In this document: positions 14,267 to 23,616 of the stretch, in pieces | Numbering within the stretch: the first letter of the stretch is position 1 | Layout of the letters: every line of letters starts with the position of its first letter | Source of the DNA: a virus | Taxonomy: Duplodnaviria; Heunggongvirae; Uroviricota; Caudoviricetes | Strand: one strand, 5' to 3' | DNA length: 51,993 nt | IMG/VR virus record: IMGVR_UViG_2850796239_000012 | Made by a program: the position numbers and the translations under genes | Notes under the pieces: model-generated | Database searches by the model: none | Told to the model about the DNA's origin: nothing | The model's input: the letters and a program-made list of their open reading frames with translations, nothing else

Positions 14267-14331
14267 TCATATGCCTCCAGAAAGCAAAAAACCCACTCGA
14301 AGGCGGGTTTTATGTAGCTAGGCTGTGTCCC

Positions 14332-14847
14332 TTAATTACGTAAGCGTTGATAAAAGAGTCGGATGCAGCCCAGTTTCACCATCGCCAGGTAATTTCTCGC
14401 CGTTTTGTCGTAACGCGTGGCGATGCGGCGATATTCTTTCAGCCGCCCAAAGCACCGTTCAACGACATTACGATTGCGGTACGCATCACGATCAAGCTGT
14501 GCACGTCCATCCGATGCCATTTTCTCATTTGACTTTCGGGGGATTACTGCCTTTATACCGTTATTTTTCAGCTCGTTGCGCAATGCGCGCCCTGAATACG
14601 CTTTATCAGCCAGTACCGCATGTCCACGGCGTTTCATGCTGCCGTTCTGACGCTGAACGCCAATCCCGTCCAGAAGTCGTTGCGCGAACTGGCTTTCATG
14701 AGCTTGTCCGGGGCTTAGCACGATATTTAACGGGAGGCCACTTCCGTCTGTTGCCAGATGGATTTTGGTGCCAAAACCGCCGCGAGAGCGACCCAGCCCA
14801 TTATCTCCGTCGATATCGGGATGTTTTTTTGAGCACCGGCGGCACAT
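14332..14847 (-). CDS. IS5-family transposase OrfB (catalytic part; probably made as an OrfAB frameshift fusion)
   Basis: 171 aa, identical to the copy at 22522-23037; in the -1 frame relative to orfA; A AAA AAC motif in the overlap. Confidence 0.75.
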   Translation of the reverse strand: MCRRCSKKHPDIDGDNGLGRSRGGFGTKIHLATDGSGLPLNIVLSPGQAHESQFAQRLLDGIGVQRQNGSMKRRGHAVLADKAYSGRALRNELKNNGIKAVIPRKSNEKMASDGRAQLDRDAYRNRNVVERCFGRLKEYRRIATRYDKTARNYLAMVKLGCIRLFYQRLRN

Positions 14848-15176
14848 TTCAGCGCCCGGATATTACTGCCATCCAGCGCGGTGGCAGACCAGTCAATAAA
14901 GCCGTTTGCATCAAGTAGCGAAAGCAACCTGTTGAAAATAATATTAATCACGCCTGACTTTGACCATCGGTTAAAGCGGTTATAAACAGTTTTCCATGAC
15001 CCATATCGTTCGGGTAAATCGCGCCATGGTGCACCGGAACATAACACCCAGAACATGCCATTGATGATTTTACGGTGCTCAGCCCATGGGCGTCCGGCCC
15101 GTGGTGTGGCGGGTTCAGGAGGTAACAGGGGCTTGATGATGGTCCATGCCTCATCGGGAAGGTCGTAGCGAGCCAT
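14727..15176 (-). CDS. IS5-family transposase OrfA
   Basis: 149 aa; 2 substitutions relative to the copy at 22193-22642. Confidence 0.8.
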   Translation of the reverse strand: MARYDLPDEAWTIIKPLLPPEPATPRAGRPWAEHRKIINGMFWVLCSGAPWRDLPERYGSWKTVYNRFNRWSKSGVINIIFNRLLSLLDANGFIDWSATALDGSNIRALKCAAGAQKNIPISTEIMGWVALAAVLAPKSIWQQTEVASR

Positions 15177-15292
15177 AGTTCAATATGTTGTGTAAACAGA
15201 CAGTTACTATAGCTCAGATGATTAAGGGACACAGCCTAGTTTTCTTTCCATGGTGATAGAAGCAATTACCGTGAAAAGTTAATTTAGCGAAC

Positions 15293-15634
15293 TCATTTCT
15301 TATTTTCAGATAGCACCAATCTACATTCTTCTTTTTTTAGAATCGTAAGAGATTGGCCACTATCGGAAAAAGAATAACCGCACTCGAAAGCGAGTTGACG
15401 CAGAGCTATTTCACCATAACTATCACCATGTTCTTTCATTAACTCATCACCAAAATCCGCCTCACGACCATTAGATACAGCGTCCATAGCCGCATTAGAA
15501 ACAGCCCTATTTGTGATCTCTCTCTTGATGATGTAGTTATCAGCCAGTGAGGTGTGCAGTCCAAAAAAATCATTCAGCATTCCACCTACACAAATTGTTG
15601 GAGTCAACACTGCGAGAAGGAATATTTTCTTCAT
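15293..15634 (-). CDS. Hypothetical exported protein (N-terminal signal peptide), moron candidate
   Basis: 113 aa, MKKIFLLAVLTPTICVGG… hydrophobic leader; AT-rich codon usage unlike the flanking tail genes. Confidence 0.45.
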   Translation of the reverse strand: MKKIFLLAVLTPTICVGGMLNDFFGLHTSLADNYIIKREITNRAVSNAAMDAVSNGREADFGDELMKEHGDSYGEIALRQLAFECGYSFSDSGQSLTILKKEECRLVLSENKK

Positions 15635-15669
15635 TACAAATGTCTCTTATAGCTGATTTCTTAAAAAAA

Positions 15670-15912
15670 TTAATTACAGTACGTTGTGCCAGTATTGGTC
15701 GCCTGGCATTCACGATGTACTGCACTCCCATTAATCGTTCCTGTGGTATACGTAGTACCTGTATTGGTTGTATAATATTCTGTTTTAACTGTAGAACCAC
15801 TACTGTCTGTACCAGTACAGTAAGTTGTTCCTGTATTTGAAGTGGTGCATGTTACCGCAGCCACAGAAGACAAAGTCACAAAATATACCAGTAATAAGAT
15901 CCATTTAAGCAT
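15670..15912 (-). CDS. Small secreted Thr/Gly-rich repeat protein, moron candidate
   Basis: Signal peptide MLKWILLLVYFVTLSSVAA then ~60 aa with four NTGTTY(C/T)(T/N)GT-like repeats and 5 Cys; start taken at the internal Met (ORF track begins at 15924). Confidence 0.4.
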   Translation of the reverse strand: MLKWILLLVYFVTLSSVAAVTCTTSNTGTTYCTGTDSSGSTVKTEYYTTNTGTTYTTGTINGSAVHRECQATNTGTTYCN

Positions 15913-20930: not shown

Positions 20931-20940
20931 TCACTTCCCC

Positions 20941-22086
20941 TTAGCGAACAACGTTAATCTGTACGTCAGCGTAATGAACCGCGCCTGCAAGTTTTATTGC
21001 AGCCTGAATCACCGGAGCCTTACGGGCTTCACGTTCTGATTGTGCCTGTTCATCCCGCGGCTGGGCGTATACGTAATAACCTTTGGGCAGCGTGTCACCT
21101 GATGACAACTGACCAAGGTCGCCACCGTTCCATACGCCCGGAGCAATCAGTCCATTCTGAACGGCCTGATCCAGTGATTTTTCAACACTTGATAACAGTC
21201 GGGTAATACCGGCTTCACTCTGGGGTACTTTCGTGGTGCTGGTATAAAGCAGGTTATAGAGGTTGGTCTGCACATAATTCTGTAACCAGTCCAGGCCGTG
21301 GCGTTCATCAAAGAAATCGCCGTTAGCCATCACTCCCTGCTGGAGGATAGCCGTATCATTCTGGTAGTACACGAATACATTGCAGTTTTTTGCATCAAGT
21401 GCCGATGCCTGGCTGACTGTCAGTGTTTCATACCCGACACCCGGCTCCTGCTTAAACTTGAGCGTAATCGCGGTATTACTGCCATTGAAATTAACCGTGA
21501 ATGCCCGGCCAAATGCAGATAACGCAGCGTATTTATTACCCGATGAATACTGAATAAAACTGCGTGAATATCCGGCGGTTTTCAGTTTTGATGCCAAATC
21601 ATCGCTGGATGCAGTCTGCAGGCATTTCTCATCGCTTGTCGTAATCGCCAGAATACGGCTTACAGAAGAGGATTCGATCGCCGCAGCCACTTTCAGCCAG
21701 TCTGCATCCGGAATATCTGCATCGTCTGCAATCCCCAGCCCATACCATGAAGTATAATCAAGCATGGCATTCACAGCCTGCTCCAGCGTCTCAGGCGTGG
21801 CCTGTTCGCTGTCTCCCTTCGTTTTCACCCAACGACCAACAAAAACCTCCTGAGGTTTCGGTGATTGTGAGAAAAACACCTGCGCAGCCTTATATTCTGG
21901 TGATTCCACGCCAAAATCTTTTCCAATATCTTCCGCAGCAGAATAACGGCGAATGCGCTCACTTACCGGAATGATTGTGGACGGGCCGAGAATGAGTAAT
22001 GCACCAAAATTTCGCCCTGATGCTGCACGCGGCGACATGATCACATCAACATTAACAACGTTTGATACAGGCAAGCCCTGTGCCAT
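20941..22086 (-). CDS. Tail sheath protein
   Basis: 381 aa; first gene of the sheath-tube-chaperone-tape measure block. Confidence 0.7.
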
Positions 22087-22192
22087 AGCTTAATCTCCGA
22101 AAAAGATGACTGGTGCTTCCACCAGCGATTTAGGCTGTGTCCCTTAATCATCTGAGCTATAGTAACTGTCTGTTTACACAACATATTGAACT

Positions 22193-22642
22193 ATGGCTCG
22201 CTACGACCTTCCCGATGAGGCATGGACCATCATCAAGCCCCTGTTACCTCCTGAACCCGCCACACCACGGGCCGGACGCCCATGGGCTGAGCACCGTAAA
22301 ATCATCAATGGCATGTTCTGGGTGTTATGTTCCGGTGCACCATGGCGCGATTTACCCGAACGATATGGGGCATGGAAAACTGTTTATAACCGCTTTAACC
22401 GATGGTCAAAGTCAGGCGTGATTAATATTATTTTCAACAGGTTGCTTTCGCTACTTGATGCAAACGGCTTTATTGACTGGTCTGCCACCGCGCTGGATGG
22501 CAGTAATATCCGGGCGCTGAAATGTGCCGTCGGTGCTCAAAAAAACATCCCGATATCGACGGAGATAATGGGCTGGGTCGCTCTCGCGGCGGTTTTGGCA
22601 CCAAAATCCATCTGGCAACAGACGGAAGTGGCCTCCCGTTAA
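22193..22642 (+). CDS. IS5-family transposase OrfA
   Basis: 149 aa. Confidence 0.8.
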   Translation: MARYDLPDEAWTIIKPLLPPEPATPRAGRPWAEHRKIINGMFWVLCSGAPWRDLPERYGAWKTVYNRFNRWSKSGVINIIFNRLLSLLDANGFIDWSATALDGSNIRALKCAVGAQKNIPISTEIMGWVALAAVLAPKSIWQQTEVASR

Positions 22643-23037
22643 ATATCGTGCTAAGCCCCGGACAAGCTCATGAAAGCCAGTTCGCGCAACGACTTCTGGA
22701 CGGGATTGGCGTTCAGCGTCAGAACGGCAGCATGAAACGCCGTGGACATGCGGTACTGGCTGATAAAGCGTATTCAGGGCGCGCATTGCGCAACGAGCTG
22801 AAAAATAACGGTATAAAGGCAGTAATCCCCCGAAAGTCAAATGAGAAAATGGCATCGGATGGACGTGCACAGCTTGATCGTGATGCGTACCGCAATCGTA
22901 ATGTCGTTGAACGGTGCTTTGGGCGGCTGAAAGAATATCGCCGCATCGCCACGCGTTACGACAAAACGGCGAGAAATTACCTGGCGATGGTGAAACTGGG
23001 CTGCATCCGACTCTTTTATCAACGCTTACGTAATTAA
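22522..23037 (+). CDS. IS5-family transposase OrfB
   Basis: 171 aa; -1 frame relative to orfA; A AAA AAC at ~22539-22545. Confidence 0.75.
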   Translation: MCRRCSKKHPDIDGDNGLGRSRGGFGTKIHLATDGSGLPLNIVLSPGQAHESQFAQRLLDGIGVQRQNGSMKRRGHAVLADKAYSGRALRNELKNNGIKAVIPRKSNEKMASDGRAQLDRDAYRNRNVVERCFGRLKEYRRIATRYDKTARNYLAMVKLGCIRLFYQRLRN

Positions 23038-23616
23038 GGGACACAGCCTAATACCGTACTCGCGCACAACCTTCCGGCGCAGACGCACCGTCATATCGTA
23101 GCGGCGGACCCATTGCTGATTAATAAGTTCAGGGAAGGGAGTCAGACCTGTGTAATCGCCAAGAGACAGCCCCAGCGCATTCAGTGCTGCATTGTTCTGC
23201 GGCACAGATATACCGTCACGAAACCGGGACGCATACACCATCCCCGCCGGACCATAAAACGAAGCCATACACTCAATCGTTTCATGCCGCCAGAGCTGAG
23301 AGCCATCATCGGTCTGTCTGGTGAATGCCGGACTGTCATCACCTGACCATCCGATAACCCCAAACGCACACCAGCTCGTTTCAGCCGGTAGCAGTGGCGG
23401 CTGCTCTTTCTGCCAGCGCGGACGAACCATCCCGGCAGACAGACCGGAAACGTTACGCATCCACTGGCTTAACAGCCTGTCGAGCGCTTCGTCATAATCC
23501 GGATCGCCACTGGTTGGTATCAGCCATCCGCGCTCTGTGCTGGTGTTATTGCTCAACCGGAATTCCCCCATCAAACGGCAGCAACTCACAATGCGCCTGA
23601 ACGAATCCGGCACCAT
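23026..23616 (-). CDS. Phage head-tail joining/neck protein, C-terminus replaced by IS-derived codons
   Basis: 196-aa ORF whose last ~7 codons and stop lie inside the IS; without the IS the frame would continue …KSLVEAPVIFFGD* to a stop 3 nt before the sheath start. Confidence 0.5.
   Translation of the reverse strand: MVPDSFRRIVSCCRLMGEFRLSNNTSTERGWLIPTSGDPDYDEALDRLLSQWMRNVSGLSAGMVRPRWQKEQPPLLPAETSWCAFGVIGWSGDDSPAFTRQTDDGSQLWRHETIECMASFYGPAGMVYASRFRDGISVPQNNAALNALGLSLGDYTGLTPFPELINQQWVRRYDMTVRLRRKVVREYGIRLCPLIT

What the first reader, a model, noticed from the sequence alone, without database searches (positions are those of the whole stretch)
14321..23048. Inverted pair of a two-ORF IS5-family element brackets the sheath-to-baseplate block
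Two 916-bp copies with identical ends lie in opposite orientation ~6.9 kb apart, each flanked by TA. Both carry an A AAA AAC heptamer in the orfA/orfB overlap with orfB in the -1 frame, which suggests OrfAB is made by programmed frameshifting. Copy 2 replaces the last 13 codons of the gene upstream of the sheath gene and separates it from sheath; copy 1 sits between the spike gene and the islet above. The inverted pair could invert the whole tail block.
Basis: seen in the sequence. Interest (0 to 1): 0.45.

Follow-up and report, generated by a model that had tools for sequence, protein, structure and literature searches.

The report
Two ISSfl7 insertions in Shigella prophage
Two copies of ISSfl7, a known small insertion sequence common in Shigella, have landed independently in the tail genes of a prophage and probably disabled it, which is ordinary genome decay and not a new system.

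Summary
Two 916-bp copies sit at 14321-15236 (-) and 22133-23048 (+), in inverted orientation and 914/916 identical. Each has perfect 16-bp terminal inverted repeats and TA on both sides.

An E. coli genome carries the same prophage at 99.9% identity without either copy. It has a single TA at each site and the same gene order. So these are two independent simple insertions, each with a 2-bp TA duplication (targets CTAG and TTAA), and the bracketed block is in its ancestral orientation.

The element is already catalogued. RefSeq names 99.7%-identical copies [quoted passage not shown]. The S. flexneri plasmid pCP301 record calls it ISSfl1 ORF1/ORF2.

- **Frameshift site:** A AAA AAC lies in the orfA frame and orfB is in the -1 frame. 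The fused product is 281 aa.
- **Catalytic residues:** D102 is in OrfA; D191 and E240 are in OrfB. Only the fusion has the full DDE/YREK motif.
- **Conservation:** the A7C tract, the 916-bp length and the YTAR target recur in 76-94%-identical relatives from about ten genera.
- **Effect on genes:** copy 2 replaces the last 13 codons of the neck-terminator gene. Copy 1 sits between a 113-aa ORF and its terminator.

Inversion of the block is possible but there is no evidence for it. This is known and of low interest.

The parts
14321..15236 (-). ISSfl7 copy 1 (916 bp), transposase on the - strand. IRR is 14321-14336 and IRL is 15221-15236. orfA is 14727-15176. The orfB frame is open over 14332-14862. 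The slippery heptamer is at 14823-14829.
   Evidence: It differs by 1 nt from an E. coli RMDEC364 copy that PGAP names ISSfl7.
14319..14320 (.). TA target-site duplication of copy 1. Its partner is at 15237-15238. The target is C-TA-G.
   Evidence: The IS-free reference L001 has a single TA in GTAGC TA GTTTT.
22133..23048 (+). ISSfl7 copy 2 (916 bp), transposase on the + strand. IRL is 22133-22148 and IRR is 23033-23048. It carries two derived non-synonymous changes (A60, V113).
22131..22132 (.). TA target-site duplication of copy 2. Its partner is at 23049-23050. The target is T-TA-A.
   Evidence: The IS-free reference L001 has a single TA in GCGATT TA ATACCG.
22193..22642 (+). orfA (149 aa). 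It contains the DUF4096 DNA-binding region and the first catalytic Asp (D102).
22540..22546 (+). A AAA AAC heptamer in the orfA frame. This is the predicted -1 slip site.
   Evidence: A7C is conserved in 52 of 55 relatives while the neighbouring bases vary.
22507..23037 (+). The orfB reading frame, -1 relative to orfA. It carries D191 and the Y-x2-R-x3-E-x6-K motif (Y233-K247, E240). The OrfAB fusion is 281 aa.
23026..23571 (-). Neck-terminator gene (Pfam PF23961) truncated by copy 2. Its last 13 codons are replaced by 7 codons read from the IS, followed by a stop inside the IS.
   Evidence: The exact chimeric 181-aa product is on record in CP026875.1 and in 3 Logan contigs.
22090..22130 (-). 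Displaced 3' remnant of the neck-terminator gene (the lost 13 codons plus the stop), left next to the sheath gene start at 22086.
   Evidence: Coordinate mapping to L001 CDS 10273-10821.
15239..22130 (-). The bracketed tail block, all on the - strand. It holds the sheath (20941-22086, DUF3383), tube (20490-20930), tail assembly chaperone (20034-20486), tape measure/lytic transglycosylase (17904-19856), Dit-like baseplate protein (17254-17904), plug (16948-17250), hub (15905-16945) and a 113-aa ORF with no family hit (15293-15634).
   Evidence: The block is collinear with the IS-free reference.
14288..14311 (-). Terminator-like hairpin followed by a T-run. It belongs to the 113-aa ORF and is now separated from it by copy 1.

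Best explanation
These are two independent simple insertions of ISSfl7. This is a known 916-bp insertion sequence of the IS5 family with the features of the IS427 group. They sit in the late (tail) operon of an E217/SEN34-type myovirus prophage in a Shigella chromosome, probably S. boydii ATCC 35964.

Each copy entered a YTAR site and duplicated the central TA.

The active transposase is most likely a 281-aa OrfAB fusion. It would be made when a minority of ribosomes slip -1 on A AAA AAC. OrfA alone (149 aa) has the DNA-binding domain and only the first catalytic Asp, and it probably acts as a regulator.

- **Shown:** the insertions, the duplications, the gene truncation, the split catalytic triad and the conservation of the slip site.
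- **Inferred:** the slipping itself, the regulatory role of OrfA, and loss of prophage function. Copy 2 truncates the neck-terminator protein and puts 916 bp of antisense IS between it and the sheath gene. Copy 1 interrupts the operon before the spike gene.

The inverted arrangement is a by-product of two random insertions. It allows RecA-mediated inversion of 6.9 kb, but nothing shows that this has happened.
For: - **Repeat and ends:**
- **Empty sites:** E. coli FDAARGOS_944 carries the same prophage at 99.9% identity. Removing both IS copies and one TA from each site leaves only a 1-base length difference. The reference has a single TA at each site.
- **Identity of the element:** it is 99.3-99.8% identical to copies in 176 plasmid records, 130 of them Shigella, and in 46 of 5426 E. 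coli genomes. These are annotated 'IS5-like element ISSfl7 family transposase', with 'programmed frameshift' and a two-piece join. The pCP301 record calls it 'ISSfl1 ORF1/ORF2'.
- **Family profiles:** NF033580 at 317.6 bits; DUF4096 plus DDE_Tnp_1.
- **Catalytic residues:** D102 lies upstream of the slip site. D191 and YREK/E240 lie downstream.
- **Relatives:** 55 full-length relatives at 76-94% nt identity come from about 10 genera.
  - 52 of 55 have TA on both sides, and 49 of 55 fit YTAR.
  - 52 of 55 keep an A7 tract followed by C.
  - 22 of 39 unique sequences keep the orfA 149 aa / fusion 281 aa layout. Most of the rest carry extra stops or indels.
- **Literature:** IS427-group elements are about 830-865 bp with 2-bp direct repeats. 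They have two overlapping ORFs and a frameshift motif, and only the fusion holds the complete DDE (PMC3281130).
- **Source and sharing:** window 13026-33571 is identical to CP026875.1. The chimeric neck-terminator protein is also seen in independent read sets.
Against: - No stimulatory structure or conserved Shine-Dalgarno-like element was found near the heptamer. The single-sequence z-score is -1.08, and the alifold consensus is weak.
- Trans-frame products had been shown only for the IS1 and IS3 families as of PMC3281130. For this group the frameshift is therefore a prediction.
- Transcriptional slippage on A7 would give the same protein.
- The subgroup assignment (IS427) rests on features. 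It was not checked against ISfinder or by a tree.
- Loss of prophage function was not tested.
Confidence: 0.93

Rival explanations
1. The pair works as an invertible cassette. Homologous recombination between the inverted copies flips 15237-22132 and so switches tail-gene expression or generates heterogeneity in the population.
For: Two inverted repeats of 916 bp at 99.8% identity are a competent RecA substrate.
Against: - The window and CP026875.1 have the block in the same orientation as the IS-free reference.
- There is no invertase gene and there are no alternative gene ends in the block.
- The two SNPs that distinguish the copies are both on copy 2, so no mosaic is visible.
- The prophage is already disrupted in either orientation.
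- Inversion does not change either flank-IS junction, so short-read data cannot show it.
Confidence: 0.04
2. The two copies and the block form a composite transposon that arrived, or can move, as a unit.
For: The architecture resembles Tn5 or Tn10: inverted IS copies with identical 16-bp ends flanking a cargo.
Against: - The IS-free E. coli prophage has the same block in the same place.
- Each IS has its own TA duplication that matches a single TA in the empty site.
- The cargo is ordinary late-operon genes in native order.
Confidence: 0.02
3. OrfAB is produced by transcriptional slippage of RNA polymerase on the A7 tract, which adds one A to the mRNA, and not by ribosomal -1 frameshifting.
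For: - The A7 run is conserved and there is no detectable ribosomal stimulator.
- From my own knowledge: Shigella uses slippage on A/T runs for mxiE and spa genes, and some IS elements use transcriptional realignment.
Against: - The tract is phased exactly as a tandem-slip heptamer X XXY YYZ.
- From my own knowledge: A AAA AAC is the IS1 ribosomal slip site, and efficient transcriptional slippage usually needs runs of 9 or more.
- PGAP annotates it as a programmed (ribosomal) frameshift.
Confidence: 0.2
4. The two-ORF state is a decayed pseudogene or an A-tract sequencing error, and the element is dead.
For: Homopolymer tracts are error-prone. Several relatives do carry extra stops or indels.
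Against: - The same A7C appears in 52 of 55 relatives from independent assemblies and in many 99%-identical Shigella and E. coli copies.
- Both halves are more conserved as protein than as DNA, for example 96% aa against 94% nt and 89% aa against 85% nt.
- The element is multicopy, with 32 chromosomal places in one E. coli genome.
Confidence: 0.03

Closest known systems
ISSfl7 (IS5 family), as named by NCBI PGAP. The same element is annotated 'ISSfl1 ORF1/ORF2' in S. flexneri 2a 301 plasmid pCP301.
   Same: It matches over all 916 bp at 99.3-99.8% nt identity. The ends are the same, and so is the joined two-piece CDS marked as a programmed frameshift.
   Different: Nothing of substance differs. 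Copy 2 has two private non-synonymous changes, S60A and A113V. The ISfinder reference entry itself could not be consulted.
IS427 group of the IS5 family (for example IS1248 and ISPpa2 of Paracoccus)
   Same: It is a small element with a 16-bp IR and a 2-bp duplication. It has two overlapping ORFs with a frameshift motif, and the complete DDE occurs only in the fusion (PMC3281130).
   Different: At 916 bp it is slightly longer than the 832-865 bp Paracoccus members. Group membership was judged from features, not from a transposase tree.
IS1 InsA/InsAB' -1 frameshifting at A AAA AAC
   Same: It has the same slippery heptamer, and the same logic of a rare fusion acting as the transposase and an upstream product acting as a regulator (own knowledge; PMC3281130 cites IS1).
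   Different: The transposase family is unrelated. In IS1 the frameshift has been demonstrated experimentally, but here it has not.
IS-mediated prophage decay and rearrangement in Shigella genomes
   Same: Several IS families are inserted in one prophage. Besides ISSfl7 there is an IS66-family element at about 5.0-7.6 kb and an IS3-family element at about 36.0-37.8 kb. An ipaH gene lies beside the prophage.
   Different: None. This is a typical example.

Membership tests
IS5 family insertion sequence | DDE transposase with the Y-x2-R-x3-E-x6-K signature | tested here: met
   D102, D191 and YRNRNVVERCFGRLK (Y233-K247, E240) are in the OrfAB fusion. Pfam DDE_Tnp_1 scores 77 bits against a cut-off of 23.
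IS5 family insertion sequence | Curated family profile matched above its cut-off | tested here: met
   NCBIfam NF033580 transpos_IS5_3 scores 317.6 bits against a cut-off of 110. Other IS family models fall below their cut-offs.
IS5 family insertion sequence | Terminal inverted repeats and a target-site duplication | tested here: met
   The IR is 16/16. The TA duplication is proven at both sites by the empty-site comparison.
IS427 group of IS5 | Small size (about 0.8-1 kb) and a 2-bp duplication | tested here: met
   The element is 916 bp with a TA duplication. 52 of 55 relatives have TA on both sides and 49 of 55 fit YTAR. The group's features are given in PMC3281130, Table 2.
IS427 group of IS5 | Two overlapping ORFs with a frameshift motif, and a complete DDE only in the fusion | tested here: met
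   PMC3281130 describes this feature.
IS427 group of IS5 | The transposase clusters with IS427 reference sequences | not tested
ISSfl7 (same IS or isoform) | Near-identity to the ISfinder reference sequence | not testable with these tools
   The evidence is indirect. The element is 99.7% identical to a copy that PGAP names ISSfl7 family, and copy 1 differs from that copy by 1 nt.
Programmed -1 ribosomal frameshift | An X XXY YYZ heptamer in the zero frame and an overlapping -1 ORF | tested here: met
   A AAA AAC is at 22540-22546. The orfB frame is open from 22507. The site is conserved in relatives.
Programmed -1 ribosomal frameshift | A stimulatory element (upstream SD-like sequence or downstream hairpin/pseudoknot) | tested here: inconclusive
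   The downstream fold has a z-score of -1.08. The alifold consensus over 25 relatives is weak and gives no proximal conserved hairpin. Not every frameshift site needs a stimulator.
Programmed -1 ribosomal frameshift | The trans-frame protein is observed | not testable with these tools
   This needs a reporter assay or mass spectrometry.
Composite transposon | IS pair plus cargo inserted as one unit, with a single duplication at the outer ends | tested here: not met
   The cargo is present in place in the IS-free reference, and each IS has its own duplication.
Site-specific invertible segment (Mu G / P1 C type) | A serine invertase gene, short crossover sites, and alternative gene ends | tested here: not met
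   There is no recombinase in or beside the block. The block holds sheath-to-hub genes only.

The most novel reading that the evidence does not exclude
The inverted ISSfl7 pair actively flips the 6.9-kb sheath-to-hub block within the population. That would make an IS-built on/off switch for a prophage tail module or tailocin-like particle. Alternatively, the pair mobilises the tail block as a composite transposon.
Probability: 0.03. Interest if true: 0.35.

Novelty: already known. Interest (0 to 1): 0.08.

Why it matters
It matters little beyond annotation. The window gives a clean before-and-after example of ISSfl7 insertion: a YTAR target, a TA duplication, and a chimeric C-terminus on the neck-terminator protein. 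It also shows how IS expansion erodes prophages in Shigella. The chimeric 181-aa protein and the two insertion sites are lineage markers for this S. boydii clone. The only open biochemical point is whether IS427-group elements really use ribosomal -1 frameshifting at A AAA AAC, and that concerns the whole group, not this locus.

Tried and rejected
1. **Exact-protein look-ups of the chimeric neck-terminator.** The 196-aa and 176-aa start choices found nothing. Only the 181-aa start is on record.
2. **Klebsiella sp. WOUb02 variants.** I first read these 917-bp variants, with a single 281-aa ORF, as natural fused transposases that would support the fusion model. Alignment showed the extra base lies about 90 nt upstream of the A7 tract. 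About 30 codons, including the D1 region, are therefore read out of frame, and the long ORF is open only by chance. I rejected this as evidence.
3. **Search for a frameshift stimulator.** The single-sequence fold has a z-score of -1.08. The alifold consensus over 25 unique relatives gave nothing convincing.
4. **Searching public collections for an 'inverted junction' sequence.** I rejected this before running it. Crossover happens inside the IS, so each flank keeps its own IS end and the junction sequences are the same in both orientations. Only molecules spanning all 916 bp are informative.
5. **Literature.** Searches for ISSfl7 and ISSfl1 returned only incidental mentions. No paper in the library shows frameshifting experimentally for the IS427 group.
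6. **Promoter and terminator scan of the region.** Promoter-like sites were fewer than in shuffled sequence (6 against 12.1), so nothing is claimed from them.

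
Full report
**Observation**

The repeat finder reports one long inverted pair. Its arms are 14319-15238 and 22131-23050, 920 nt each, with 6892 nt between them. A base-by-base comparison sets the element limits at 14321-15236 (- orientation) and 22133-23048 (+ orientation). Each copy is 916 bp, and homology stops abruptly after a TA on each side.

The copies differ at two positions, 22370 G/T and 22530 T/C. Both are non-synonymous in orfA (A60/S60 and V113/A113). The ends form a perfect 16-bp inverted repeat, GGCTGTGTCCCTTAAT. The window has no further copy or fragment.

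**Both copies are simple insertions, shown by an empty-site comparison**

A megablast of 11900-25000 against complete E. coli genomes found the same prophage region in 444 of 5426 genomes. The best match is strain FDAARGOS_944, at 99.9% identity over 11,264 bp. That is the query length minus two times 918 bp, to within one base.

All four flanks map exactly onto that record. At each site the reference has a single TA where the window has TA-IS-TA:
- Site 1 is GTAGC TA GTTTT.
- Site 2 is GCGATT TA ATACCG.

After removing both elements and one TA from each site, the window aligns end to end with the reference with one 1-base indel. Three things follow:
- The TA pairs are true 2-bp target-site duplications, in CTAG and TTAA targets.
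- The two copies arrived separately, not as a composite transposon.
- The bracketed block is in its ancestral orientation.

**What the element is**

The 916 bp match 176 plasmid records, 130 of them Shigella, mostly at 99% identity or more. They also match 46 of 5426 E. coli genomes, one of which has 32 chromosomal places.

RefSeq annotates such copies as 'IS5-like element ISSfl7 family transposase'. The older pCP301 records call the same element ISSfl1 ORF1/ORF2. A paper on Shigella fim loci mentions an ISSfl7 insertion in fimD of an S. boydii strain (PMC4374849).

The conceptual OrfAB fusion matches NCBIfam NF033580 (IS5 family transposase) at 317.6 bits against a cut-off of 110. It also matches Pfam DUF4096 and DDE_Tnp_1.

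The element's features fit published descriptions of the IS427 group of IS5: small size, a 2-bp duplication, two overlapping ORFs with a frameshift motif, and a complete DDE only in the fusion (PMC3281130). I could not consult ISfinder, so the subgroup label rests on features and not on a tree.

**Coding anatomy and likely mechanism**

- orfA runs 22193-22642 (149 aa).
- The -1 frame is open from 22507 to the stop at 23035-23037.
- The A7 tract at 22539-22545 plus C22546 reads CA A AAA AAC in the orfA frame. That is the tandem-slip heptamer A AAA AAC.
- A -1 slip there gives a 281-aa protein.

D102 (ALDGS) lies before the slip site. D191 (LADKAY) and the Y-x2-R-x3-E-x6-K motif (Y233 to K247, E240) lie after it. 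Neither ORF alone can be a transposase.

The genome scan returned 80 loci, and 55 of them hold full-length relatives at 76-94% nt identity. They come from Symbiopectobacterium, Klebsiella sp. WOUb02, Erwinia tracheiphila, Brenneria, Photorhabdus, Mixta, Phytobacter, Enterobacter and other records. Among these relatives:
- Nearly all are 914-917 bp.
- 52 of 55 have TA on both sides, and 49 of 55 fit YTAR (CTAG 23, TTAG 12, CTAA 12, TTAA 2).
- 52 of 55 keep an A7 tract followed by C, while the bases just upstream vary.
- 22 of 39 unique sequences keep exactly the orfA 149 aa / fusion 281 aa layout. Most of the rest carry obvious extra stops or indels.

Protein identity exceeds nucleotide identity on both sides of the slip site. 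This is what selection on a frameshift-dependent gene would produce, and it rules out a sequencing error or recent pseudogenisation of the A tract.

The frameshift itself remains an inference. No significant downstream structure and no conserved stimulator was found. PMC3281130 states that trans-frame products had been shown only for IS1 and IS3. Transcriptional slippage on A7 would give the same protein, and I rate it a minority alternative.

**Effects on the prophage**

The surrounding genes, all on the - strand, are a contractile-tail module. In order they are:
- neck terminator (PF23961)
- sheath (DUF3383)
- tube
- tail assembly chaperone
- tape measure
- Dit-like protein
- plug
- hub
- a 113-aa ORF with no family hit
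- spike
- sheath initiator
- baseplate J

Four induced E. coli phages of the vB_EcoM-606R2 type share this region at about 97.7% identity, so the intact version is a working phage.

Copy 2 lies inside the neck-terminator gene. The last 13 codons (KSLVEAPVIFFGD) are replaced by RLCPLIT plus a stop read from the IS end. The displaced 3' remnant stays at 22090-22130, beside the sheath start codon.

Copy 1 lies between the stop of the 113-aa ORF and its terminator-like hairpin at 14311-14288, just upstream of the spike gene.

Copy 2 is antisense to the operon and copy 1 is co-directional with it. Polarity on the downstream tail genes, and so a defective prophage, is likely but not tested.

The same prophage also carries an IS3-family element near the Q antiterminator gene and an IS66-family element next to the tail-fibre genes.

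**Source**

Window 13026-33571 is identical, with 0 mismatches in 20,546 nt, to CP026875.1 of assembly GCA_002950355.1. The next accession, CP026876.1, is a plasmid of Shigella boydii ATCC 35964. The window is therefore probably that strain's chromosome. This rests on adjacent accession numbers and is an inference.

The chimeric neck-terminator protein is also encoded on three Logan short-read contigs that end at the IS. The copy 2 insertion is thus seen in independent data and is not an assembly artefact.

**The inversion idea**

Any pair of 916-bp inverted repeats can recombine. Here the orientation is ancestral, there is no invertase, and both private SNPs sit on copy 2.

Inversion would not alter either flank-IS junction, because the crossover is internal to the IS. 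Only molecules spanning a whole copy can test it, so I ran no further search on junction patterns.

**Verdict**

The feature is a known insertion sequence doing a known thing in a genus famous for it. Novelty: already known. Interest: low.

Noticed in passing
window 2849-4674 (+): An ipaH-type effector gene is split into two overlapping ORFs. One is 2849-4234 (LRR_TTSS and LRR domains) and the other is 3808-4674 (NEL E3-ligase domain). It looks like a frameshifted ipaH pseudogene or a homopolymer error.
   Followed up: no
window 1-675 (-) and 4999-7638 (+): Two near-identical 224-aa HTH_Tnp_1 ORFs lie in inverted orientation. The second is followed by an IS66-family transposase (6037-7638). 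This looks like a second inverted IS pair, bracketing a lactonase gene (973-1974) and ipaH, next to the prophage tail-fibre end.
   Followed up: no
window 36009-37763 (-): An IS3-family element (rve integrase core plus an upstream ORF) is inserted next to the Q-antiterminator-like gene (35168-35842) of the same prophage. This is a further sign of decay.
   Followed up: no
window 15293-15634 (-): A 113-aa ORF sits between the baseplate hub and spike genes. It has no Pfam or NCBIfam hit and has its own terminator-like hairpin (14311-14288), so it resembles a moron. It is also present in the IS-free E. coli prophage as a hypothetical protein.
   Followed up: partly
L009-L017 (Klebsiella sp. WOUb02): A 917-bp variant of the element carries one extra base at element position 317, about 90 nt upstream of the A7 tract. 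This gives a chance-open single 281-aa ORF that lacks the first catalytic Asp. It is nevertheless present in at least 9 loci with TA duplications, which suggests mobilisation in trans by the 916-bp copies in the same genome.
   Followed up: partly
L006-L085: Relatives of the element are strongly expanded in host-associated Enterobacterales. There are dozens of loci each in Symbiopectobacterium purcellii, Symbiopectobacterium sp. RP and Klebsiella sp. WOUb02, and many of them are truncated or carry stops.
   Followed up: no
L021 (Martelella alba scaffold) and L026 (Methylococcaceae MAG contig): The closest relatives outside E. coli and Shigella (94% and 85% nt identity) sit in records of an alphaproteobacterium and a methanotroph MAG. 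This could be horizontal transfer or contamination of those assemblies with enterobacterial contigs.
   Followed up: no
L001 11187-11740 versus window 23922-24476: The head-tail gene just upstream of the neck genes is annotated as frameshifted in the IS-free E. coli FDAARGOS_944 prophage. It is an intact 184-aa ORF in the window.
   Followed up: no
window 38903-39589 (-) and 32208-32720 (+): The prophage carries a QueH-like epoxyqueuosine reductase gene and a VTT-domain membrane protein gene as apparent accessory cargo.
   Followed up: no
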